Positions 1-46,943 of a stretch of 64,000 nucleotides of DNA are shown here, piece by piece. Each line of letters opens with the position of its first letter. The first letter of the stretch is position 1. The notes under the pieces were generated by a model, which ran no database searches, was not told the DNA's origin, and was given only the letters and a program-made list of their open reading frames with translations. Source of the DNA: Escherichia phage vB_EcoM_G2133; sequence record MK327928.1; one strand, given 5' to 3'. Both the position numbers and the translations under genes were made by a program.

Positions 1-1384
1 GACCACGGGATTTAATTGTCTCATTAAATTCTTCATCTAATGTAAACACATAATCCGCTTCCATTATTTTAAGATAATGGTTAATCTGCTTATTAAATAA
101 TGGAATGTACTTTTTAATAATAGCACCTTTAATACCAGAATCTTTGAGCATATCAGTCAAAATTCCTCGGTGGTATTTTTCCATTACTAAATTAGTTTTT
201 GTCTTAACAATTTTATCAAGTTCTTCTTGAAGCAGTGCTATTTCATCAGCATGGTCAATAAACTCAGAAGATGCTTTTTCTATAGCCGCTTTAACCTTTT
301 TAGCTTTATCTACCGTCGTGATTAGAGATTGCTTTTTATTGCGAATATCATTTGCCAACGACTGTTGGGTTTTAATATTATCTCGGTATTCATCAACAAG
401 AACTCTTAAATTATCACGATGTGTTGAAAGCTGTTCAAACGAATGCGTACATTCAGAAACTTTATCTTTAATTTTAGAAACAACTTTATCACCGGAACTT
501 AATTGTGACAAACAGGTTGGACATAATCCACCTTCGTGATACATATTAATGACTTTATTATACGAGTCAATTTTTGATTTAATTAAAAATGCTTCTTGAC
601 CGATTTTATTAAATGCATCAGTCGGGTCTTCATCCAAAACAATATTAACTAATCTTTCATTAGCTTCTTCTATTTCCGATTTTAGCGTTCTAGCTTCTTT
701 TGCCAAATCATCATACATATTTTGAAGACGAGTAAGGTTGTCACCCGTTAATTTTTTCTGGCGTTCAACGTTATCATTATATATTTTAATTTGTTGGATA
801 ATACTATCTTTTTTAACATCAAGCACTTGGTTTTGTGAGTTTAATTCACGTATTAGTGCTTTATTAAGCTTATCCATTTCAGCTAATGTTCCTACCTCGA
901 GCAGGTCTTCCACAAGCTTTCTTCGCGCAGGGGTCGACAAACCCATGAAAGGGGTATACCCTGCTGTACCAAGGACAACAATCTGCTTGAAACTGGCATA
1001 TGACATTCCGATAAGCTGTTCAAATTCTGCTTGGAAATCTTTACTGCTGGCAGATTCATTAAGACGTGTATCGTTAACGGTGATTTCGAAAACGTTTGGT
1101 TTTTGTCCTCTTTTGATATAGTACTTTTTCTCATCATATTCCATCCACAGTTCAACTAAAAGTTCTTTCTTATTTGTGCTGTTTATTAATTGACCTTTCT
1201 TTACATCGCGAAATGGCTTACCAAAAAGCCCAAATGTGATGGCTTCTAACATAGTAGACTTACCACCGCCATTTCGGCCAGTAATAAGAGTTTTTTGAAC
1301 CTTATCTAATTGAATGTCAACTCCATTTTGACCAACTGACATTATATTTTTATATTTTACTCTATTAAGTTTAAATGATTTCAT
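1..1384 (-). CDS. 46: Recombination endonuclease subunit gp46 (SbcC/Rad50-like ATPase), N-terminal part; C-terminus lies beyond the window start
   Basis: Minus-strand translation from ATG at 1384 reads MKSFKLNRVKYKNIMSVGQNG...TGRNGGGKST (Walker A) and stays open to the window edge; matches the T4 gp46 N-terminus as I recall it. Confidence 0.85.
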   Translation of the reverse strand, partial: MKSFKLNRVKYKNIMSVGQNGVDIQLDKVQKTLITGRNGGGKSTMLEAITFGLFGKPFRDVKKGQLINSTNKKELLVELWMEYDEKKYYIKRGQKPNVFEITVNDTRLNESASSKDFQAEFEQLIGMSYASFKQIVVLGTAGYTPFMGLSTPARRKLVEDLLEVGTLAEMDKLNKALIRELNSQNQVLDVKKDSIIQQIKIYNDNVERQKKLTGDNLTRLQNMYDDLAKEARTLKSEIEEANERLVNIVLDEDPTDAFNKIGQEAFLIKSKIDSYNKVINMYHEGGLCPTCLSQLSSGDKVVSKIKDKVSECTHSFEQLSTHRDNLRVLVDEYRDNIKTQQSLANDIRNKKQSLITTVDKAKKVKAAIEKASSEFIDHADEIALLQEELDKIVKTKTNLVMEKYHRGILTDMLKDSGIKGAIIKKYIPLFNKQINHYLKIMEADYVFTLDEEFNETIKSRG

Positions 1385-1399
1385 TTTGTATCCAATTGT

Positions 1400-2261
1400 T
1401 CACAATGAAGAAAATTCTTTAACTAAAGCCTGTAATGAAGCCTCTATTGGATATCCATTCTTAACTAACATTTTCCTAAACATCACATGTTTAGGACGAT
1501 TATATGATATCCACAATTCATACAATTTATCTTTATTATCCCAATGATAACCTTTTCGTCGAGATGCTATATGAGCTTTTCTAATCTCCGGATTTTTCCA
1601 ACTAGCAGCTACTGAATTTGATATAGCTATTTTATATTCAGGTTTTGATAAAGCAGCACGAACAGCCTTTTGGTGTTTAATTTTATTTTCTTCGTTATTA
1701 AACCATTCCCTTGAAGCCATTGAAATTTTTTGTTTTGTTTTAAAATTATTTAATCTTTCTTTGTTATCTTTCCTATTTTTTGCTACTGAAAAATATTTTA
1801 ATGCCCTTTCTCTAGCAGCATTTCTATTTTGCGGATTTGAATAATACTGTTGAAGCCTTTTTGATATTGTGTCACTTACATCTTGTTTTATAAAACTATA
1901 CTCAGCAGCTATTAAATCAACTTCGGCTAAAGATAAATTTTTATATGTTTTTCCTGACATCATTCTATTTAAAGCATTTAGCATTTAGCATTTTTCCATT
2001 TTTACCTTTTGCTAATAAGAAATGTGCTTTAAAATGATTAAAATGACTTAAATTAACTAAATTCCATGTAGATTTTAAATATTCAGGAAATATTGATTTA
2101 GGAAGCACGTGGTGTGCTTCCGTTTTACCTGGAGTTTTAACAGTTGAATTCATAGAAATAAAATTAATGTAAGACTTGGCGTCTTCTTCACTCAACGCTA
2201 ATTTTTCAACTAATTCCTTTATTAAAAATTCATCATTAATGTCAAGTTTAAAATTCTTCAC
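1400..2261 (-). pseudogene. HNH homing endonuclease (Mob-like, HNH N-domain plus basic repeat C-domain) split into two frames
   Basis: ORF 1965..2261 carries the HNH motif (HHVLPKS...NLVNLSHFNHFKAHFLL); ORF 1400..1984 carries basic repeat motifs like those in the C-terminus of the HNH gene at 21868..22647. The two overlap in different frames inside a heptamer repeat. Confidence 0.55.
1974..1994. repeat. Tandem heptamer repeat GCATTTA GCATTTA GCATTTT at the HNH frame junction
   Basis: Direct read of the sequence at 1974-1994. Confidence 0.85.
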
Positions 2262-2473
2262 AAAAGATTCCTTTTAATGTATCTTTTAGACCATTCTATC
2301 ATATCATCATAATCTAAAAAGTATTCATCAAATTCAGCCATGCAAACAACACCTTGTGCTGTTTTTGATGTAATATAAATTATTCCAACATATCTAGAAT
2401 CTTCTTCGGTATAATCAATGTTTGCTATGAATTCATCATTAATGTCAAATGTCGAAAACTTCACAGTATGCAT
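2258..2473 (-). CDS. Hypothetical small protein
   Basis: ORF-track ORF trimmed to the internal ATG at 2473; its N-terminus (FSTFDINDEF) resembles the N-terminus of the adjacent HNH ORF. Confidence 0.3.
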   Translation of the reverse strand: MHTVKFSTFDINDEFIANIDYTEEDSRYVGIIYITSKTAQGVVCMAEFDEYFLDYDDMIEWSKRYIKRNLL

Positions 2474-2708: not shown

Positions 2709-3724
2709 TGTGTTGCCTCTACATATAACTGATTTGCATATTGAATAAGTGCTTCACGGTCAGAATCAGTGATGTCTGGAATTGCATTAATGTATTCTTC
2801 CATCAATGTCTGAAGCGATTGAACTTCAACTTCTTCACTGTTATCTGACTCGACAGAGTTATCAATCTTTGACACAACTCGTAATGAATGCACAACTTTT
2901 TCTAGTTCAGATTCGAACTTCGTCAGATTTTTGTCTACTTCAGTTACTATAACACGTACTGATAGATTTGTAAAATCTTTATAGTCAATTTTTCCTTTAA
3001 ATGGATAATGAATTCTACGATGCCAGGTAGTATTGTTTGGAATAAATTCCATTCGTTCTGTTTCTGTATCAAACATCCAGAACCCGCGAGGGTCATTCTC
3101 GTCACCTGCTGTTAGTGTCCATGGTGTCCCAATATATCTGACGTTAGCAGCCTCAGAAATAGTATGGAAGTGACCAGACCACACTTCTTTATAAGTCTTA
3201 AGGAAATCAGGTTCAAGACCATGAGATTTCATTCCTTTATAAAAATAAAATCCATTCAGTTCCCAGTGACCAACACAAAAAGAAGCAGATGAAGTTTTGA
3301 TGTGCTCAAGAATTTCACCAGTATTTTCTTCGCACATCCAAGGAATCAAATCAATCAAACACCCGTCAAAATCTACTGTAGTAGGCTTATCATATACTTT
3401 AACATTAGGATATTTAGCCAAAAGCTCAGTAGAAGCATTTGGAGTTAAAGTATTTTTAAAGTGCATATCATGGTTTCCTACAACAGTATGTAGGGTAATA
3501 CCAGCATCATCAAGCATTTGAACTATTTCACGAGCGAACTCCATAGTTTTATGCGTGATTGCTTTTCGCACATCAAAAATATCGCCGTATTGAATCCATG
3601 TAGTAATTTCATTTTTCTTAGAATATTCTATGGCTTGTTTAATTCCATCCAACTGAATGGATTGAACCCACTCATCATCGGCTTTAACGCCTAAATGCCA
3701 ATCACCTAAATTTAAAATTTTCAT
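2705..3724 (-). CDS. 47: Recombination endonuclease subunit gp47 (SbcD/Mre11-like phosphoesterase)
   Basis: 339 aa; calcineurin-like motifs GDWHLG, GDIFD, GNHD; length and sequence match T4 gp47. Confidence 0.9.
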   Translation of the reverse strand: MKILNLGDWHLGVKADDEWVQSIQLDGIKQAIEYSKKNEITTWIQYGDIFDVRKAITHKTMEFAREIVQMLDDAGITLHTVVGNHDMHFKNTLTPNASTELLAKYPNVKVYDKPTTVDFDGCLIDLIPWMCEENTGEILEHIKTSSASFCVGHWELNGFYFYKGMKSHGLEPDFLKTYKEVWSGHFHTISEAANVRYIGTPWTLTAGDENDPRGFWMFDTETERMEFIPNNTTWHRRIHYPFKGKIDYKDFTNLSVRVIVTEVDKNLTKFESELEKVVHSLRVVSKIDNSVESDNSEEVEVQSLQTLMEEYINAIPDITDSDREALIQYANQLYVEATQ

Positions 3725-20873: not shown

Positions 20874-21884
20874 TCATTTATAATAACTTCGATGGTTTTC
20901 AAGATAGACTTTCTCAAGGAAGTCATCCCAAAAACCCATGTCCACTTTTTGCTGCATACCGTTCTTAGAAGCTTCAGTAGATGCTGCTTCTACTTGATCG
21001 ACCACATCTTCCAAAAACTCTTGAACGGTTTTAAATGGATGTTTACCCAACTTCACGTCGAGAATAAATGGAGCGTCTTGAAGTGGATAAACCAAGTCGC
21101 CAGTTTTGTAAATTTCCAATAGTTGAAGTCCACCACGACAGGCATGGCTCAGAGCTTTCCAGTCAATACCTTCATTGGCTTCGGCCTTACGAGCACGTTC
21201 ACCATATTCAGCATCTAATTTGTTCAGTGACTGCTTAAGCTCAATAAGAGAAAGAGTTGTCTGATATTTACGACCCAACACTGTGTAAAACGTTTGTGGG
21301 CCTGTTTTCTCATGATTATGGAACACCCATTCACAGAATTCGTTTTCTGGAAGACGATGCTTAATATCTTCAACTTTAGTACGACGCTGCTTAATGGAAC
21401 CGTCTTCTTGGTAATCAACCCATTGCTCAGGGATTTGATTAACTACTTTCAATACATCACGTAATGCAGCCAAACGAGAACCCTTGACACCGTATTTAGA
21501 AGCTTGCTTGCGGACATATCCTAAATAGGATTTCATGTTAGTCGTATAAAAACGAGAACGGTTGTCTTGAATAAACTTCCATACATCAGGCAAATCGGAT
21601 TTAACCACTAGTTCAGGTGGAGTGTGAAGCATATCCAACGCTACAGTTTCACCATCTGCCGCTAATTTAAAGAAATATTTAAGACTGTATAGTTCATGGT
21701 CAATATCATCTTTAGTGTTTTTAGATGATGTGTTGTTAGTGTTTTTACTCATGTGCTCTTTGACATTTCCGATAAGAATATCACGAGCAGGAGGAACAAA
21801 AATTTCTTTAAAATCTACATCAGATTCTGGGGTAGAAGTTCCATAAAGATGACTACCAAAATAAGACTTAACTACAGTTTTCAT
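20874..21884 (-). CDS. Nucleotidyltransferase-fold protein (Pol-beta-type GS...DxD motif), function unknown
   Basis: Motif FGSHLYGTSTPESDVDF (G-S, ten residues, DxD); start is uncertain (ATGs at 21884, 21899, 21908) and overlaps the 3' end of the HNH gene. Confidence 0.55.
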   Translation of the reverse strand: MKTVVKSYFGSHLYGTSTPESDVDFKEIFVPPARDILIGNVKEHMSKNTNNTSSKNTKDDIDHELYSLKYFFKLAADGETVALDMLHTPPELVVKSDLPDVWKFIQDNRSRFYTTNMKSYLGYVRKQASKYGVKGSRLAALRDVLKVVNQIPEQWVDYQEDGSIKQRRTKVEDIKHRLPENEFCEWVFHNHEKTGPQTFYTVLGRKYQTTLSLIELKQSLNKLDAEYGERARKAEANEGIDWKALSHACRGGLQLLEIYKTGDLVYPLQDAPFILDVKLGKHPFKTVQEFLEDVVDQVEAASTEASKNGMQQKVDMGFWDDFLEKVYLENHRSYYK

Positions 21885-22647
21885 TATTAGACCTTTCATA
21901 ATCTTCATTAAATTGTACAATCAATCGATGATAATTAGATTTTGGATATCCTAATTTACTTATATAAGTTCCGAATGACCCACGTTTAGGTCTATTTAAT
22001 TTAATCCATAACTTATAAAGTAAGTCATAGTCTTGCCAATGTTTACCAGTTCTTTGTCTAATTTTAGATGAATTTGATTGTTTCTTTTTAGTTTCAAAAT
22101 TATTCAAAGATTTTTTGACTGCAGCAGAGTGTTTTTCTTTAACTCCCGGTCGTTTAAAAGCAGCTTTCACCCCTTTAGATATTTTTTCTTTAACTTCCGG
22201 TTTGTTTTGTGCTTCTAACTGGGATTCTGAAATTTTAGCCCTTATTTCAGGAAGACTTAATGTTATCGAACGTTTTTCTCTGTATTCATTAGACTTCCAC
22301 ATTTCTTTCATTGTATTAGAATGTATTTTTGAAAATTTTTCTCTAACTAACTGATATCCTCTTGAAGTTAATTTGAGATTTCTTCCTAAAGAATCTTCTC
22401 CAAAATTATAAAATGACCACCATGCATAAATTAATCCAGGCGAATTATAATGAATTTTAGCTAAAAGCCAATGGGCTATAAAATGCTCTCTAGCTGTTAA
22501 TAAAACTAGATTATCAGAATCATCATTACCACCAATACAAGATGGAATAATATGATGCTTTTCCGTATAAAAATTTAATTTAGATTTATCTAATTTTCTG
22601 AGTTTTCCTTTCTTAATTAAATTATTATATACTTTAGTATAATTCAT
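21868..22647 (-). CDS. HNH homing endonuclease (Mob family; mobD-like by position)
   Basis: 259 aa; HHIIPSCIGGNDDSDNLVLLTAREHFIAHWLL HNH motif and lysine-rich C-terminal repeat motifs. Confidence 0.7.
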   Translation of the reverse strand: MNYTKVYNNLIKKGKLRKLDKSKLNFYTEKHHIIPSCIGGNDDSDNLVLLTAREHFIAHWLLAKIHYNSPGLIYAWWSFYNFGEDSLGRNLKLTSRGYQLVREKFSKIHSNTMKEMWKSNEYREKRSITLSLPEIRAKISESQLEAQNKPEVKEKISKGVKAAFKRPGVKEKHSAAVKKSLNNFETKKKQSNSSKIRQRTGKHWQDYDLLYKLWIKLNRPKRGSFGTYISKLGYPKSNYHRLIVQFNEDYERSNNENCS

Positions 22648-30943: not shown

Positions 30944-30976
30944 TTCTGTATTTACCCCCTCCAAGTAATTATGATT

Positions 30977-31006
30977 ATACTATCACAATTCTAGGAGAAA
31001 GTAAAC
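30977..31006 (-). promoter_or_regulatory. Possible early promoter
   Basis: GTTTAC present; the -10 element is ambiguous (TAGTAT at 18 nt or TATAAT at 21 nt). Confidence 0.35.
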
Positions 31007-31008
31007 TG

Positions 31009-31311
31009 TTATTTACCTTTAATTACTTTAGCTGCTTCGATAGCCGCTTGCTGAAGGTCATCCATAGACATACCGAATTTAGAAGCAAAGTTATCAATTT
31101 TCTTTTCGACAGCATTCAAAGGCTTGGCCTGTTTACCTTCATTAGCGCCAGGAAGAGCGAGAATACGCTCTTTGTCAATATAAAGGCTTACAAGTTTCTT
31201 ACGGTCTTTATCGGACAAATCATGAAATGAATGGGCCTTTTTATTTATAGCGGCTTCTAATTTACCTGCACTCACTCGCGCTTCAGTAATAAATTCTTGA
31301 TATGTTTTCAT
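31009..31311 (-). CDS. ipII: Internal protein II (capsid-targeted, injected)
   Basis: 100 aa; N-terminal capsid-targeting sequence MKTYQEFITEA. Confidence 0.75.
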   Translation of the reverse strand: MKTYQEFITEARVSAGKLEAAINKKAHSFHDLSDKDRKKLVSLYIDKERILALPGANEGKQAKPLNAVEKKIDNFASKFGMSMDDLQQAAIEAAKVIKGK

Positions 31312-31352
31312 ATGTTTCCTTTAAATGTAAATAGGTCTGAGTATTAGCTTTA

Positions 31353-31931
31353 TTAGGAATTACGGGCTGCATTAGCAACGGCGTAAGCGTACTGAACATT
31401 AGCGTCTTTAAACGTACCTTTAGAGGTATCTAGTTCTGCCTTAAAGCCGCCTTTAGTCATAACATCGGCAAATTCTTTACGGAAAGCCATTGCATCAAGA
31501 CTTCTCCATAATGATTTGTGCTTGGCGAATTCAAGACCAGCGTAGTTGACAGCCTTAGCTAATTTGTTATCAATAACCCATTTACCAGCTTTAGGCACAA
31601 ACACCGGGCCTTTCTGTTTAGAGAACAGTTTTAAATTCCAGCGACGAAGGTCACCGTCGGCTTTAACAAAAGCTGCGTCTAAGTTACTAGCAACAACATC
31701 CTGAATATGGCCAAATTTAAGCCCATCAACTTCAATATTTAGATCGGTACGCCAGCGAAGTCCTTCCCAAGCGAAAGCTTTAAAGTCGGAAGCCTTTGTA
31801 GCTAAGTACCGTTCAATAGGAGCTGTTTTAGGGTCAAAGCCGTTTCCCGATCGGTAGGTCCACTCATCTTTATTAATGCCTTTGGCCTTTACTACAGAAG
31901 CTTCGGCAATAAATTCTTGATATGTTTTCAT
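31353..31931 (-). CDS. ipIII: Internal protein III
   Basis: 192 aa; N-terminal MKTYQEFIAEA, and the body matches T4 IPIII as I recall it. Confidence 0.8.
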   Translation of the reverse strand: MKTYQEFIAEASVVKAKGINKDEWTYRSGNGFDPKTAPIERYLATKASDFKAFAWEGLRWRTDLNIEVDGLKFGHIQDVVASNLDAAFVKADGDLRRWNLKLFSKQKGPVFVPKAGKWVIDNKLAKAVNYAGLEFAKHKSLWRSLDAMAFRKEFADVMTKGGFKAELDTSKGTFKDANVQYAYAVANAARNS

Positions 31932-31959
31932 GTGTTTCCTTGTTTGTTTTGATAGAGTA

Positions 31960-31989
31960 ATTATACCATATTAATACTTAAGCGTAAAC
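31960..31989 (-). promoter_or_regulatory. T4-type early promoter upstream of ipIII
   Basis: GTTTAC, 18 nt, TATAAT (preceded by TGG) on the minus strand. Confidence 0.6.
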
Positions 31990-32069
31990 CGTTTAAGCTT
32001 TACCGCCAGAAATAATTCCGAAGTTGTTAAAATCATATCCAATATCGTCAACATCTACTTTAGGACTTG

Positions 32070-32252
32070 CTACAACATAAGCAATTTCACTACGTTTGCA
32101 TAGGTGTTGATTTCTTTACCATCGCCACCTAAGAAAGAATACCCATTACGTTTTAATGAGCCAAAGTCTTCCACATCACCAATGAAAGCTTTAACTTTAA
32201 ATTTAGAACCTTTGGCATCTGCTTCAACGATAAATTCTTGATACATTTTCAT
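32070..32252 (-). pseudogene. Truncated IP-like gene (capsid-targeting leader, then early stop)
   Basis: Starts MKMYQEFIVEA but terminates after 60 codons; the downstream sequence stays open in another frame. Confidence 0.4.
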
Positions 32253-32258
32253 TTTTCC

Positions 32259-32672
32259 TTAGTAAATTGATTTACCAAAGTATTTGTACCAAGTCGGACG
32301 TTGAGCAATTTTTTCATCTAAGCGTGCTTGACTTATCGCAATGGACGCTTCGGACGGGACATAATTATTACGAAATTCTACAGGAATGTCGGAAATATCC
32401 TGGACTGTCGTGTCCTTGATTTTGAAACCACGTTTCAAACATTCAGCGATTAGCTCGATTTGACGTAAACGTAAAAATTCGAGTTTGTCGTAAAAGAATG
32501 TTACGTGACCTGTGCCTAAGATAAATGTTGGAGAGATTTTAAAATCCTTTACACGTTTACCGTTTTGAACATGTTTACGGACTGCACCAAATACGCGTGG
32601 TAATTCACGATACTCAGCCATAAGATGTTGGTCGGTCAATTCAAAAACAAGTGTTAAATTGATACGGGTCAT
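32259..32672 (-). CDS. denV: Endonuclease V (pyrimidine-dimer DNA glycosylase) DenV
   Basis: Start at the ATG at 32672; MTRINLTLV...[19 protein letters not shown] matches T4 endonuclease V. Confidence 0.88.
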
Positions 32673-32699
32673 AATTTCCTCCAAGTAGTTGATGAATGT

Positions 32700-32729
32700 A
32701 TAGTATCAAAACCCTTGGAGGAAGTAAAC
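32700..32729 (-). promoter_or_regulatory. T4-type early promoter upstream of denV
   Basis: GTTTAC, 18 nt, TACTAT on the minus strand. Confidence 0.55.
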
Positions 32730-32731
32730 AA

Positions 32732-33972
<1,241 letters not shown>

Positions 33973-38568: not shown

Positions 38569-38655
38569 TGGTACGAGAAGTGGGACTCGAACCCACAAGG
38601 AAATCATTCCGCAGCATTTTAAGTGCTGTGCCTTTACCAATTTGACTATTCTCGC
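38569..38655 (-). tRNA. tRNA-Leu (UAA), long variable arm, CCA encoded
   Basis: Acceptor GCGAGAA/TTCTCGT, anticodon loop CTTAAAA, T-arm GGTTCGAGTCC, 3' ACCA. Confidence 0.85.
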
Positions 38656-38661
38656 TCTATA

Positions 38662-39270
38662 TTATTTATTACGTGAAAAAGATTGTTCTATCAATTCTGG
38701 ACACTTTCGTTCTATCCATTTTCTAGCTTTTTGTGGGCTTATACCTATTATTTTAGCAGCTTTACTAACCCATCCAAATTTAGAATAATCGATTTTAACT
38801 AATTCTTCGTAAATTTCATCAGTTAAAATCTTTTCATTAATATTTACCAGTAAATGATATAATTTATTATCATTAGCAATTTTAATGAATCTTTTATAGT
38901 TTCCGCCTTTACTTAAACCTAATGAAGTAATTGCAGATGATATAGTAGCCGAATTTAATAATGCGTTTAAAATTTCTTCATCACTAACATTATAACGCTT
39001 TTTATTATTTTTAATATTTTTACCAGCAAAAGTATCAGTTTGCGAATGGCAATTTGGACATAATAATCTTAAATTTGATTTAAGATGATTTTTATTATTT
39101 CCATCAATATGGTCTAATTGCAGAACAATATGCTTATTTTGCCATTTTGAAATTTTACAAATTGCACACTCATATGGAAAAATATTTTCTTTTATTATTT
39201 TGTCTTTCAGCTTTCCTGTACTAAAATTTGGATGTTTTCCTTCAAAAATTTCAGCTAATTTAGTATCCAT
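38662..39270 (-). CDS. HNH endonuclease with C-terminal helix-turn-helix-like domain, adjacent to the tRNA array
   Basis: Start at the ATG at 39270; CAIC...LQLDHIDGNNKNHLKSNLRLLCPNCH HNH and zinc-finger motif. Confidence 0.65.
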   Translation of the reverse strand: MDTKLAEIFEGKHPNFSTGKLKDKIIKENIFPYECAICKISKWQNKHIVLQLDHIDGNNKNHLKSNLRLLCPNCHSQTDTFAGKNIKNNKKRYNVSDEEILNALLNSATISSAITSLGLSKGGNYKRFIKIANDNKLYHLLVNINEKILTDEIYEELVKIDYSKFGWVSKAAKIIGISPQKARKWIERKCPELIEQSFSRNK

Positions 39271-39380
39271 AATATAATTCCCAATTATTAACAAAGGCTC
39301 TCTAACAAGAACCCTTGATGATAGAGGGTATTAATCGGTGCGGTATGAGTTAATAATAACAAATAATTCTTAAAGCATAT

Positions 39381-42658: not shown

Positions 42659-43318
42659 TTAATTTATTAGACTTCTTAAACGAACAGAAGTCATAAATGG
42701 AAATTTTTCTAAAGTTGGCTTTCGCCAATATCTTGGATGACAAGTTGATTTAAAATCAAGAACAATTTTCTTTGCTTCATCAATAGTGTTAACTCCAAAG
42801 TTATCTAACATTATTTTCTTTTCTTTTTCCCACCGTTTATTAGCTAAAGCAGATTGAAGCTTTTTGTTTTTAAATGTGTCATTTTTTCTAGAATGAGTTG
42901 TTCCTTGTGTCGGACTCCATCCTCTTCCTAAAATAAATCCCTCAGGAATTATATCTCCATCATGCAATTTTATACATCTTTTACCATTATTATAATATTT
43001 TCGTCCAGTTTGTGTATTTGAAATATTATTTGCATGTTTTCTTTTTAACCAACCATAAACTTTATTATTTCTCCTAACATATTTAGTTGAAACCGTCATT
43101 TTTATGGCTGCATAAGATAATTTTAAAGAATTTGGGTGTATTTTTACTAATAGCTGATGTGCAACATAATGCTCTTCTGGAGTTAAATCAACCAAGTTAG
43201 AAGCATCATTACTACCGCCTAAACATTTCGGAATAATATGATGTCTTTCTTTATATCCAGTAAGGGCTCTATTGCGAGCCCTATCAATTAGTGAATTATA
43301 AATTTTTTCATAATTCAT
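42659..43318 (-). CDS. HNH homing endonuclease (Mob family) inserted between genes 2 and 3
   Basis: Start at the ATG at 43318, overlapping the gp2 stop (ATGA); motif [32 protein letters not shown]. Confidence 0.65.
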
Positions 43319-44142
43319 CGTACATTGCTCCAAACTTTGTTTGCAGAGAAACGTTTTCCTTTTGAGTAGAAGCTTTGGAGTGGCATCAACACAACGTTCG
43401 CCCAGTCTTTCGGGGCGATTTCAACAAGGCTACCCATAATATTACCAGGTATATATGCCTTAATCATTTGGTCTGCACCCCTAAATCCTTTCACTTGACT
43501 CCAATCAATTTTTAATTTCGTTTTATTAGTAATAGTAGGTGTATTTGCATATTGCTTTAAAAGCTCTTCTAGAAACTGTTGACGAGCTTTAGGTGGAATA
43601 TAGTGCAAGTTCAATCCGTACATTAAATTATGCTTACCTAAACCAAGGTAAATTATCAAAGGAAATTTATCCCAGTAAGGAAGAGTTTCCTTGTGTTTAG
43701 CATCATAAGCAAAAGCATATATTCGTCCCGGCTGCGGGCGAACAACTTTATGTCCTTTTACTTGCTTAATAGTTTCAGCAAACCACTTTCTGGTTTTATT
43801 ATTAATTGCTGCGCCTTCATTACGAATTTTATCGCGCAATGTTTGTCTGAATGAATTTATCATAAGCAGTTGTCTTTCTTGCTTATTGAGCTTATTCATT
43901 GGTTTTGATTCAAGCTTTTGAATCTTTTCAGCCGTTTTAATTCCTGAAGCATATTTTGACATTGCTGAAGTAAACGTAGAGTATTTGATTCCTCTTTCTT
44001 CGGCAAATTGCTTTCCTGTCATTCCTTTTGCTTTGGCCTTTTTATATTCAAGACCTATCTGAATCCATTTCTTTTCGTTTAATGATTGCTTAACCTTTGG
44101 AACTTGGGGAGTGCTTTCATTAATTATTTGAAAAATAGCCAT
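43315..44142 (-). CDS. 2: DNA end-protector protein gp2
   Basis: 275-codon ORF; size and position match T4 gp2. Confidence 0.85.
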
Positions 44143-45232: not shown

Positions 45233-46943
45233 TAACCTCAATTGGTTTGTTGGTGTTGTTGAAGATAGAATGGACCCATTGAAATTAGGTCGTGTTCGTG
45301 TTCGTGTGGTTGGTCTGCATCCACCCCAAAGAGCGCAAGGCGATGTAATGGGTATTCCAACCGATAAATTACCATGGATGTCAGTTATTCAACCTATAAC
45401 TTCTGCAGCAATGTCTGGAATTGGAGGTTCTGTTACAGGACCAGTAGAAGGAACTAGAGTTTATGGTCATTTTTTAGACAAATGGAAAACTAACGGAATT
45501 GTCCTTGGCACGTATGGTGGGATAGTTCGCGAAAAACCTAATAGACTTGAAGGATTTTCTGACCCAACTGGGCAGTATCCTAGACGTTTAGGAAATGATA
45601 CTAACGTATTAAACCAAGGCGGAGAAGTAGGATATGATTCGTCTTCTAATATTATCCAAGATAGCAATCTAGACACTGCGATAAATCCTGATGATAGACC
45701 GCTATCAGAGATTCCAACCGATGATAATCCAAATATGTCAATGGCTGAAATGCTTCGCCGTGATGAAGGATTAAGACTAAAAGTTTATTGGGATACCGAA
45801 GGATATCCGACAATTGGTATTGGTCATCTTATCATGAAGCAGCCAGTTCGTGATATGACCCAAATTAATAAAGTTTTATCAAAACAAGTTGGTCGTGAAA
45901 TTACAGGAAATCCAGGTTCTATTACAATGGAAGAGGCGACGACTTTATTTGAGCGTGATTTGGCTGATATGCAACGTGACATTAAATCACATTCTAAAGT
46001 TGGCCCAGTTTGGCAAGCAGTTAATCGTTCTCGTCAAATGGCGTTAGAAAATATGGCATTCCAAATGGGCGTTGGTGGCGTAGCTAAATTTAACACAATG
46101 TTAACTGCTATGTTAGCAGGAGATTGGGAAAAAGCATATAAAGCCGGTCGTGATTCATTGTGGTATCAACAAACAAAAGGCCGTGCATCCCGTGTTACCA
46201 TGATTATTCTTACGGGGAATTTGGAATCATATGGTGTTGAAGTGAAAACTCCAGCTAGGTCTTTGTCGGCAATGGCTGCTACTGTGGCGAAGTCTTCTGA
46301 TCCAGCTGACCCTCCTATTCCAAATGACTCAAGAATTTTATTCAAAGAACCAGTTTCTTCATATAAAGGCGAATATCCTTATGTGCATACAATGGAAACT
46401 GAAAGTGGACATATTCAGGAATTTGATGATACCCCTGGGCAAGAACGATATAGATTAGTTCATCCAACTGGAACTTATGAAGAAGTATCACCGTCAGGGA
46501 GAAGAACAAGAAAAACAGTTGATAATTTATATGATATAACAAACGCCGACGGTAATTTTTTGGTTGCTGGAGATAAAAAGACCAATGTTGGCGGATCTGA
46601 AATTTATTACAACATGGATAATCGTCTCCACCAAATAGATGGAAGCAATACGATATTTGTTCGAGGCGATGAAACTAAGACGGTTGAAGGTAATGGAACT
46701 ATCCTAGTCAAAGGTAATGTTACTATTGTAGTTGAAGGTAATGCTGACATTACAGTTAAAGGAGATGCTACCACTTTAGTTGAAGGAAATCAAACTAATA
46801 CAGTAAATGGAAATCTTTCTTGGAAAGTTGCTGGGACAGTTGATTGGGACGTTGGCGGTGATTGGACAGAAAAAATGGCATCTATGAGTTCTATTTCATC
46901 TGGTCAATACACAATTGATGGATCGAGGATTGACATTGGCTAA
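45216..46943 (+). CDS. 5: Baseplate hub and cell-puncturing lysozyme gp5
   Basis: 575 aa; internal lysozyme domain (MLRRDEGLRLKVYWDTEGYPTIGIGHL) and C-terminal VxGxxxxx beta-helix repeats. Confidence 0.92.
   Translation: MEMISNNLNWFVGVVEDRMDPLKLGRVRVRVVGLHPPQRAQGDVMGIPTDKLPWMSVIQPITSAAMSGIGGSVTGPVEGTRVYGHFLDKWKTNGIVLGTYGGIVREKPNRLEGFSDPTGQYPRRLGNDTNVLNQGGEVGYDSSSNIIQDSNLDTAINPDDRPLSEIPTDDNPNMSMAEMLRRDEGLRLKVYWDTEGYPTIGIGHLIMKQPVRDMTQINKVLSKQVGREITGNPGSITMEEATTLFERDLADMQRDIKSHSKVGPVWQAVNRSRQMALENMAFQMGVGGVAKFNTMLTAMLAGDWEKAYKAGRDSLWYQQTKGRASRVTMIILTGNLESYGVEVKTPARSLSAMAATVAKSSDPADPPIPNDSRILFKEPVSSYKGEYPYVHTMETESGHIQEFDDTPGQERYRLVHPTGTYEEVSPSGRRTRKTVDNLYDITNADGNFLVAGDKKTNVGGSEIYYNMDNRLHQIDGSNTIFVRGDETKTVEGNGTILVKGNVTIVVEGNADITVKGDATTLVEGNQTNTVNGNLSWKVAGTVDWDVGGDWTEKMASMSSISSGQYTIDGSRIDIG

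What the first reader, a model, noticed from the sequence alone, without database searches (positions are those of the whole stretch)
1400..2261. HNH homing-endonuclease gene between 47 and 46 is split exactly at a 3-copy heptamer repeat; losing one unit would restore one reading frame
ORF 1965..2261 (HNH motif) ends inside GCATTTA-GCATTTA-GCATTTT at 1974-1994, and ORF 1400..1984 (basic C-terminal repeats like those of the HNH gene at 21868..22647) starts inside it in the other frame. Removing one 7-nt unit joins them without a stop (...GKMLNALNRMMSGK...), giving a protein of about 290 aa. Because 7 is not a multiple of 3, repeat copy number acts as a frame switch. This is either a decaying endonuclease or a slippage-prone on/off switch.
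Basis: seen in the sequence. Interest (0 to 1): 0.55.

Follow-up and report, generated by a model that had tools for sequence, protein, structure and literature searches.

The report
Homing endonuclease gene broken by duplication
A selfish "homing endonuclease" gene between genes 46.1 and 46 of this T4-like phage is out of frame because of a private 7-base tandem duplication; about 70 related phages carry the two-copy version, most of them in frame, so this is an ordinary, very young pseudogene and not a genetic switch.

Summary
A perfect 3 x 7-nt repeat (AGCATTT, window 1973-1993) sits where a 98-aa ORF (1965-2261, minus strand) and a 194-aa ORF (1400-1984) overlap in different frames. Deleting one unit gives a 284-aa protein identical to the "homing endonuclease" of phages such as SHFML-11 and FJ1. 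The gene is a Mob-type HNH free-standing homing endonuclease inserted between 46.1 and 46. It is present in 70 of about 517 Tequatrovirus records. All 69 records whose length I could read have the two-copy length; none has three copies. The three-copy product is on record once, in Escherichia phage vB_EcoM_G2133, probably this genome. One- and four-copy products are absent from about 15 billion proteins. The intact frame is under purifying selection (pN/pS about 0.11). Apart from the duplication, the window differs from the consensus by two synonymous changes. Three other lineages (T2, RB51/RB68, MLP2) carry independent frameshifts in the same gene. Only two copies reads through: four or more copies put TAA in frame. 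Two relatives break the repeat with a synonymous change. The best reading is a recent slippage duplication that inactivated a selfish gene. The switch reading is not supported. Interest is low.

The parts
1973..1993 (-). Perfect 3 x 7-nt tandem repeat (AAATGCT on the coding strand). Relatives have 2 units, so one unit (which one cannot be told) is the frameshifting duplication.
   Evidence: TRF; alignments with KMB40 and 15 other phages show a clean 7-nt gap
1965..2261 (-). ORF1, 98 aa: the N-terminal HNH nuclease domain of the homing endonuclease. It starts at GTG and ends in 4 out-of-frame residues (KCFK) and TAG.
   Evidence: exact product = QBO60798.1 of phage vB_EcoM_G2133
1400..1984 (-). 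ORF2, 194 aa: the C-terminal, presumed DNA-binding part of the same endonuclease (basic helical repeats), now in the +1 frame.
   Evidence: phrog_655 positions 93-265; aligns with the MobD-like and MobC-like C-termini; homologues hit NUMOD1/NUMOD3
1376..2252 (-). The whole endonuclease cassette as an insertion relative to phage T4 (877 nt here, 870 nt in two-copy relatives).
   Evidence: pairwise alignment with T4 NC_000866
2244..2252 (-). Upstream copy of the 9-bp direct repeat TTTAAACTT that bounds the insert (codons 4-6 of the ancestral gene 46 start, now codons 4-6 of the endonuclease).
1367..1375 (-). Downstream copy of TTTAAACTT (codons 4-6 of the present gene 46).
2258..2464 (-). Gene 46.1. 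Its TGA stop overlaps the endonuclease GTG start (GTGA).
   Evidence: annotation of KMB40, RB68, T6 and T4 transferred by alignment
1..1384 (-). Gene 46 (SbcC-like recombination nuclease subunit), cut by the window edge. Its new ATG at 1384 is supplied by the cassette, 15 nt after the endonuclease stop.
1958..1967 (-). ORF1 stop TAG (1965-1967), then one A, then ATG ATG (1961-1963, 1958-1960) in the ORF2 frame: a possible termination-reinitiation site (inference only).
   Evidence: read from the sequence

Best explanation
This is a Mob-type HNH free-standing homing endonuclease gene, the orthologue of T6 YP_010067209.1, inserted between genes 46.1 and 46 of a Tequatrovirus. In this one genome it was recently inactivated by a 7-bp tandem duplication. 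The ancestral sequence already held two adjacent AAATGCT units, coding ..K-M-L-N-A-L-N.. in the helix just after the HNH motif. Replication slippage (Streisinger-type misalignment) or unequal pairing added a third unit. That shifts the frame by +1, so the protein ends after 98 residues, uncoupled from its DNA-binding half. Shown: the duplication, the intact state in relatives, selection on the intact frame, and the singleton status of the allele. Inferred: the slippage mechanism, the loss of homing activity, and that the event is neutral or mildly advantageous for the phage, because the element is selfish and its gene-46 neighbour has its own start.
For: (1) Across the 862-nt gene the window differs from KMB40 by the 7-nt insertion and 2 substitutions. 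Against the consensus of 16 genomes it differs by the insertion and 2 synonymous changes. (2) 70 phage records carry the gene, and 69 have readable spans. All have the two-copy length or that length minus 1-2 nt; none has three copies. All 15 relatives aligned have exactly two units, or two with one synonymous mismatch. (3) The repaired protein is identical to P0008, which is found on 41 contigs. (4) ORF1 and ORF2 match consecutive parts of one profile. The junction KMLNALNRM aligns with SKMCYAFHRM of the MobC-like paralogues, so the two-copy frame is the ancestral one. (5) There are 26 synonymous and 12 non-synonymous variable sites, pN/pS about 0.11, across both halves. (6) The 98-aa product is on record once, QBO60798.1 of vB_EcoM_G2133. 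The 1-copy and 4-copy products of three haplotypes are absent from about 15 billion proteins. (7) The same gene has independent frameshifts elsewhere: -1 in an A-run in RB51/RB68, -2 (AA) in T2/SV76, -1 in MLP2. This fits the degeneration phase of the homing-endonuclease life cycle described in PMC2988022. (8) The comparison with G28 turned up no other unpaired indel that I took to lie inside a gene. The remaining indels are compensated pairs in divergent patches or sit in contexts that look intergenic, though I did not check these against the gene table.
Against: No raw reads were available, so an assembly artefact or a mixed population cannot be excluded. Loss of function is inferred, not measured. 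ORF1 keeps the complete HNH motif, and ORF2 could be translated by reinitiation (TAG-A-ATG). A three-unit tract can revert by losing one unit, so the inactivation is in principle reversible.
Confidence: 0.8

Rival explanations
1. Reversible contingency switch: heptamer copy number toggles between 2 (ON) and 3 (OFF) by slippage at a biologically useful rate, letting the phage population carry both active and silent endonuclease alleles.
For: The unit length is not a multiple of 3 and the tract lies inside the ORF. The allele is otherwise undamaged, with only synonymous differences, so losing one unit would fully restore the gene.
Against: 69 of 70 relatives have the two-copy length and none has 3. 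No 1- or 4-copy products are in the protein collection. The tract has only 2-3 units, whereas known contingency loci have long tracts (own knowledge). Only 2 copies is ON; four or more copies create an in-frame TAA, so 5 copies does not restore the frame. PP01 and OMNI12 break the repeat with a synonymous change, so the repeat itself is not conserved. Other lineages lost the gene through unrelated frameshifts.
Confidence: 0.05
2. Sequencing or assembly artefact: the real genome has two copies.
For: The allele is known from a single deposited genome. The source study used PacBio RSII or MiSeq assemblies.
Against: A clean 7-nt tandem duplication is not a typical error of either platform; these produce homopolymer indels or substitutions (own knowledge). 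I saw no other unpaired indel that I took to lie inside a gene when comparing with G28, although I did not map those indels onto the gene table.
Confidence: 0.06
3. Functional split: the frameshift produces two polypeptides, a 98-aa HNH domain and, by termination-reinitiation at TAG-A-ATG, a 187-aa DNA-binding protein. These either reassemble into a nuclease, or the DNA-binding half acts alone, for example by protecting or repressing the target site.
For: The break falls just after the complete HNH motif, so the halves roughly match the nuclease and DNA-binding modules. The ORF1 stop is one base from two in-frame ATGs of ORF2. T4 ribosomes are reported to reinitiate within a few codons of a stop (PMC2988022).
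Against: The break lies inside a confidently predicted helix (residues 89-100) of the N-terminal domain, not in a disordered linker. No relative has this arrangement. There is no Shine-Dalgarno sequence before these ATGs. Nothing was measured.
Confidence: 0.05
4. Programmed +1 (or -2) ribosomal frameshift or transcriptional slippage makes full-length protein from the three-copy allele.
For: The required shift is +1 within a 20-nt overlap.
Against: The predicted RNA structure around the site is no more stable than in shuffles (z 0.27). There is no long homopolymer and no recognisable slippery site with an upstream Shine-Dalgarno sequence. All relatives are simply in frame, so no such signal is conserved.
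Confidence: 0.02

Closest known systems
The intact orthologue in T6, SHFML-11, G28, PP01 and others (e.g. YP_010067209.1, annotated 'homing endonuclease', 284 aa)
   Same: Same locus (46.1/46) and same 870-nt cassette, 98-99% nucleotide identity. The repaired window protein is identical to P0008.
   Different: The window has one extra AAATGCT unit, so the gene is split into 98-aa and 194-aa ORFs.
T4 Mob family of free-standing HNH homing endonucleases (MobA-E; MobE and MobA shown to nick and to be over-inherited, PMC2988022)
   Same: N-terminal E-x-HH-x-x-P...N-x-V-x-L...H-x-x-x-H motif with a distinct C-terminal region. Promoter-less cassette overlapping the upstream ORF. GTG start, as in mobA. 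30% identity to the MobD-like gene at 21868-22647, 35% to the MobC-position protein P0003, and alignable with T4 MobB.
   Different: The insertion site (46.1/46) is empty in T4. No activity or target has been shown for this member. It gives no direct Pfam HNH hit.
Other degenerate alleles of the same gene: T2/SV76 (-2 nt, 204 aa), RB51/RB68 (-1 nt, 208 aa), MLP2 (-1 nt, 256 aa)
   Same: Independent frameshifts at short repeats or A-runs in the same selfish gene.
   Different: Those break the C-terminal region by 1-2 nt deletions. The window breaks right after the nuclease motif by a 7-nt duplication.
Simple-sequence contingency loci (phase variation by repeat copy number)
   Same: A repeat whose unit is not a multiple of 3, inside an ORF, where copy number sets the frame.
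   Different: Only 2-3 units, no polymorphism among relatives, a single ON state, and a repeat that is not conserved.
Streisinger-type slippage frameshifts, classically defined in T4 (own knowledge)
   Same: Gain of one unit at a pre-existing short tandem repeat.
   Different: Nothing is different in kind; the mechanism is inferred from the sequence, not observed.

Membership tests
HNH (beta-beta-alpha-Me) nucleases | Conserved His...Asn...His motif residues | tested here: met
   E48, H50, H51, P54, N67, V69, L71, H76 and H80 are invariant across 8 homologues, including T4 MobB. All lie within ORF1.
HNH (beta-beta-alpha-Me) nucleases | Significant match to a curated HNH profile | tested here: inconclusive
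   No Pfam or NCBIfam hit for the protein itself. phrog_12434 'HNH endonuclease' scores E 4e-15. 2 of 8 homologues hit Pfam PF01844 (best 1.2e-4). For the family profile against PDB, the top six hits are all HNH domains (McrA, Cas8f-HNH, group II maturase, pyocin AP41), but with E 0.025-0.43.
HNH (beta-beta-alpha-Me) nucleases | Beta-hairpin plus helix fold around the motif | tested here: inconclusive
HNH (beta-beta-alpha-Me) nucleases | Metal-dependent DNA cleavage or nicking | not testable with these tools
   Needs biochemistry.
Free-standing phage homing endonuclease gene (T4 Mob/Seg type) | Sporadic presence between conserved genes in otherwise collinear relatives | tested here: met
   70 of about 517 Tequatrovirus-like records that match the flanks carry the cassette. 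T4 has 46.1 overlapping 46 directly.
Free-standing phage homing endonuclease gene (T4 Mob/Seg type) | Nuclease domain fused to a separate DNA-binding region | tested here: inconclusive
   The C-terminal 190 aa are basic helical repeats homologous to the MobD-like and MobC-like C-termini. Homologues, but not this protein, hit NUMOD1/NUMOD3. The C-terminal model has low confidence.
Free-standing phage homing endonuclease gene (T4 Mob/Seg type) | Cleaves the cassette-less allele and is over-inherited in mixed infection | not testable with these tools
   Needs crosses. No paper on this member was found.
Repeat-mediated phase-variable (contingency) gene | Copy-number polymorphism among close relatives or within a population | tested here: not met
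   Two copies by length in 69 of 70 records, and exactly two units in the 15 relatives aligned. Three copies occur in one genome only. 1- and 4-copy products are absent. Heterogeneity within the population is not testable without reads.
Repeat-mediated phase-variable (contingency) gene | Long tract with recurring ON states, and a repeat conserved as a repeat | tested here: not met
   2-3 units. Four or more copies introduce TAA, so only 2 copies is ON. PP01 and OMNI12 interrupt the repeat with a synonymous change.
Programmed ribosomal frameshift site | Slippery sequence plus stimulatory element, conserved in relatives | tested here: not met
   No structure beyond shuffles (z 0.27). Relatives are in frame and need no shift.

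The most novel reading that the evidence does not exclude
The three-copy allele is one state of a reversible 2<->3 copy toggle that keeps a selfish endonuclease silent in most virions and reactivates it by loss of one unit. Alternatively, the split gene yields a separately translated DNA-binding half with a function of its own. Either would be a phage-borne selfish gene regulated by repeat slippage or domain splitting.
Probability: 0.05. Interest if true: 0.45.

Novelty: already known. Interest (0 to 1): 0.12.

Why it matters
It matters little on its own: it is one more degenerating homing endonuclease gene. It has two modest uses. First, the same cassette now shows four independent frameshift alleles (this one, T2/SV76, RB51/RB68, MLP2) beside about 57 in-frame copies under purifying selection. 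That is a clean natural snapshot of the invasion, maintenance and decay cycle of selfish nucleases in T-even phages. Second, this phage is a natural, otherwise unmutated knock-out of an uncharacterised Mob-type endonuclease. Crossing it and an intact-allele relative (G28, G2540-3, T6) against T4 would test whether the enzyme drives marker exclusion around the essential recombination genes 46/47. For annotation, the two 'hypothetical protein' ORFs should be merged into one frameshifted homing endonuclease pseudogene.

Tried and rejected
- Pfam, NCBIfam and a PDB sequence search with the ORFs and the repaired or intact protein gave no direct hit.
- Foldseek against PDB with the full-length model returned only unrelated helical proteins; the low-confidence C-terminus dominates the search.
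- A pattern scan allowing any copy number between fixed flanks found 0 hits in IMG/VR and 0 in JGI metagenomes. A protein-guided scan of IMG/VR found no relative.
- Megablast against complete E. coli genomes found no match.
- The look-up of encoding contigs for ORF1 and ORF2 returned 'not on record', although the exact-sequence look-up did find ORF1 in NCBI.
- The sigma-70 promoter scan found no more sites than in shuffles.
- A MotA-box-like AATGCTTTA is formed by the last repeat unit, but no -10 element lies at the right distance. I rejected the idea that the repeat is a middle promoter.
- The RNA fold around the repeat is no more stable than in shuffles, so I rejected a frameshift stimulator.
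- Two literature searches found no paper that names or studies this endonuclease.
- I considered calling it a contingency locus and rejected that on the membership tests.

Full report
**What the window is.** The window is a stretch of a T4-like phage (Tequatrovirus). Its best matches in the phage collection are about 96-97% identical over 24 kb, for example G28, RB3 and SHFML-26. The genes near the finding lie on the minus strand in the T4 order a-gt, 47.1, 47, 46.2, 46.1, then the two ORFs of the finding, then 46.

**The observation.**
- Tandem Repeats Finder gives a perfect 3.0-copy heptamer at 1973-1993, AGCATTT on the plus strand and AAATGCT on the coding strand.
- It is the only perfect repeat of at least three copies with a period that is not a multiple of three in the window. 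None of 300 dinucleotide-preserving shuffles contained a period-7 tract of 21 nt.
- ORF1 (1965-2261, GTG start, 98 aa) ends ...GKNGKMLNAKCFK*. ORF2 (1400-1984, 194 aa) begins MLNALNRMMSGK in the +1 frame, with a TAA just upstream of its ATG.
- Removing one unit gives an 855-nt frame of 284 aa.

**What the gene is.**
- ORF1 matches positions 2-96 of PHROG 655 ('homing endonuclease') and ORF2 matches positions 93-265. The joined protein matches 2-265 at E 8e-45. PHROG 12434 ('HNH endonuclease') matches the N-terminus at 4e-15.
- Pfam, NCBIfam and PDB sequence searches do not hit the protein directly.
- An alignment with its paralogues shows invariant E48, H50, H51, P54, N67, V69, L71, H76 and H80. 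The paralogues are the MobD-like gene at 21868-22647 (30% identity, E 1e-18), a MobC-position protein between nrdD and nrdG (P0003) and T4 MobB. The invariant residues form the E-x-HH...N...H-x-x-x-H pattern of HNH nucleases.
- Two of these homologues reach Pfam HNH, and four reach NUMOD1.
- With a profile of the family against PDB, the top six hits are all HNH domains aligned on that motif, though only at E 0.025-0.43.
- I therefore call it a Mob-type HNH homing endonuclease on sequence grounds. The fold test is inconclusive and the activity is untested.

**It is a mobile cassette.** Relative to T4, where the 46.1 stop overlaps the gene 46 GTG start, the window has an 877-nt insertion (1376-2252) bounded by a 9-bp direct repeat TTTAAACTT. 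The endonuclease ORF has taken over the ancestral GTG start of gene 46 and its first six codons (MKNFKL). Gene 46 restarts at a new ATG (1384) as MKSFKLNRV, 15 nt after the endonuclease stop. Of about 517 phage records that match the flanks, 70 carry the cassette. This sporadic distribution is what is expected of a free-standing homing endonuclease gene (review PMC2988022).

**What relatives have at the repeat.**
- together list 69 of the 70 carriers. Every one spans the query in 7, 8 or 9 fewer bases than the window, and none has the three-copy length.
- In a 16-genome alignment, 13 of the 15 relatives have exactly AAATGCTAAATGCT. PP01 has AAATGTTAAATGCT, and OMNI12 carries the same synonymous C>T.
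- The window differs from KMB40 by the 7-nt insertion and two substitutions across the gene. Against the consensus its only other differences are two synonymous changes.
- The repaired protein is identical to P0008, which is found on 41 contigs, including SHFML-11 and FJ1.
- The junction sequence KMLNALNRM aligns with SKMCYAFHRM of the MobC-like paralogues, so the two-copy frame is ancestral.
- Variable sites split 26 synonymous to 12 non-synonymous, pN/pS about 0.11. The full-length frame is therefore maintained by selection in the population.

**How widespread the three-copy allele is.** The exact 98-aa product is on record once, as QBO60798.1, G2133_00059 of Escherichia phage vB_EcoM_G2133 (one contig of 168,959 bp). 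The products expected from one-copy and four-copy alleles of three N-terminal haplotypes are not among about 15 billion proteins. The window is therefore probably that genome, which comes from a study that used PacBio RSII or MiSeq (PMC6563267). It appears to be absent from the phage collection searched here. Scans of IMG/VR, JGI metagenomes and complete E. coli genomes found no further alleles.

**Other broken alleles.** The same gene is frameshifted independently by loss of one A in an A-run in RB51/RB68 (window-equivalent 1731), by loss of AA in T2/SV76 (1645-1646) and by loss of one A in MLP2 (1528). These give 208-, 204- and 256-aa products. Recurrent decay of a selfish nuclease is the expected late phase of its life cycle.

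**Why not a switch.**
- There is no copy-number variation among relatives.
- The tract has only 2-3 units.
- The repeat is not preserved as a repeat in PP01 and OMNI12.
- Only two copies is an ON state. Because the unit contains TAA in one frame, any allele with four or more units has an in-frame stop, so five copies would not restore the protein.
- Loss of one unit would restore the gene, so the mutation is revertible in principle. That is true of any tandem duplication.

**Why not programmed frameshifting.** The RNA around the site folds no better than shuffles (z 0.27). There is no long homopolymer, and relatives need no shift.

**Why probably not an artefact.** A clean 7-nt tandem duplication is not a characteristic platform error (own knowledge). 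The comparison with G28 showed no other unpaired indel that I took to lie inside a gene, although I did not map those indels onto the gene table. Without reads this remains at about 5%.

**A residual possibility.** The ORF1 stop (TAG 1965-1967) is followed after one base by two ATGs in the ORF2 frame. Reinitiation near stops is described for T4. So the DNA-binding half might be made separately. However, the break lies inside a confidently predicted helix (89-100) of the N-terminal domain, and nothing supports any function for the pieces.

**Verdict.** This is a real feature with an ordinary explanation: a young, lineage-private frameshift pseudogene of an already annotated Mob-type HNH homing endonuclease, created by a 7-bp tandem duplication at a pre-existing two-unit repeat. 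Confidence is about 0.8, novelty is low, and interest is about 0.12.

Noticed in passing
window 1367-1384 and 2244-2261: The endonuclease cassette has taken over gene 46's ancestral GTG start and first six codons (MKNFKL), overlapping the 46.1 stop as GTGA. It supplies gene 46 with a new start (ATGAAATCA..., MKSFKL). A 9-bp direct repeat TTTAAACTT bounds the 877-nt insert relative to T4.
   Followed up: partly
L002/L007 (RB68, RB51), L003 (MLP2), L008 (T2); window-equivalent 1731, 1528, 1645-1646: There are three further independent frameshift alleles of the same endonuclease: -1 in an A-run (RB51/RB68), -1 (MLP2) and -2 AA (T2 and SV76). Current annotations split the gene, or in RB51 omit it.
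   Followed up: yes
window 2101-2121: An 8-bp-stem palindrome GGAAGCAC-ACCAC-GTGCTTCC lies exactly over the codons for the catalytic E-A-H-H-V-L-P. The only variant seen in relatives (CAC>CAT) falls in the loop. The scan flagged it as terminator-like on the antisense strand.
   Followed up: no
window 1958-1967: The ORF1 stop TAG is followed by A, then ATG ATG in the ORF2 frame, an arrangement that could allow termination-reinitiation of the C-terminal half.
   Followed up: partly
window 1970-1978: The last repeat unit plus its flank forms AATGCTTTA, a match to the T4 MotA-box consensus. No TAnnnT -10 element lies 11-13 nt downstream, so it is probably fortuitous.
   Followed up: yes
window 21868-22647: A second, intact Mob-type HNH gene (259 aa, in the mobD position; 30% identical to the repaired 46.1/46 endonuclease) belongs to the same PHROG 655.
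   Followed up: partly
window 3718-3724 versus L018 3815-4410: Phage G28 has an extra ORF of about 620 nt between genes 47 and a-gt that this window lacks. Several other stretches (about 30957-33015, 38655-39275, 42661-43330) have no megablast match to the fetched part of G28, which indicates mosaic segments.
   Followed up: no
window 45290-45307 and 46687-46790: There is a perfect 3 x hexamer TCGTGT, and a 24-nt imperfect tandem array (2.4-3.3 copies) in the baseplate gene region. Both keep the reading frame.
   Followed up: no
protein collection, cluster of P0001: the look-up of encoding contigs reported the 98-aa ORF1 as 'not on record', while the exact-sequence cluster look-up found it (QBO60798.1). 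The two indexes differ, so a negative from the former is weak evidence.
   Followed up: yes
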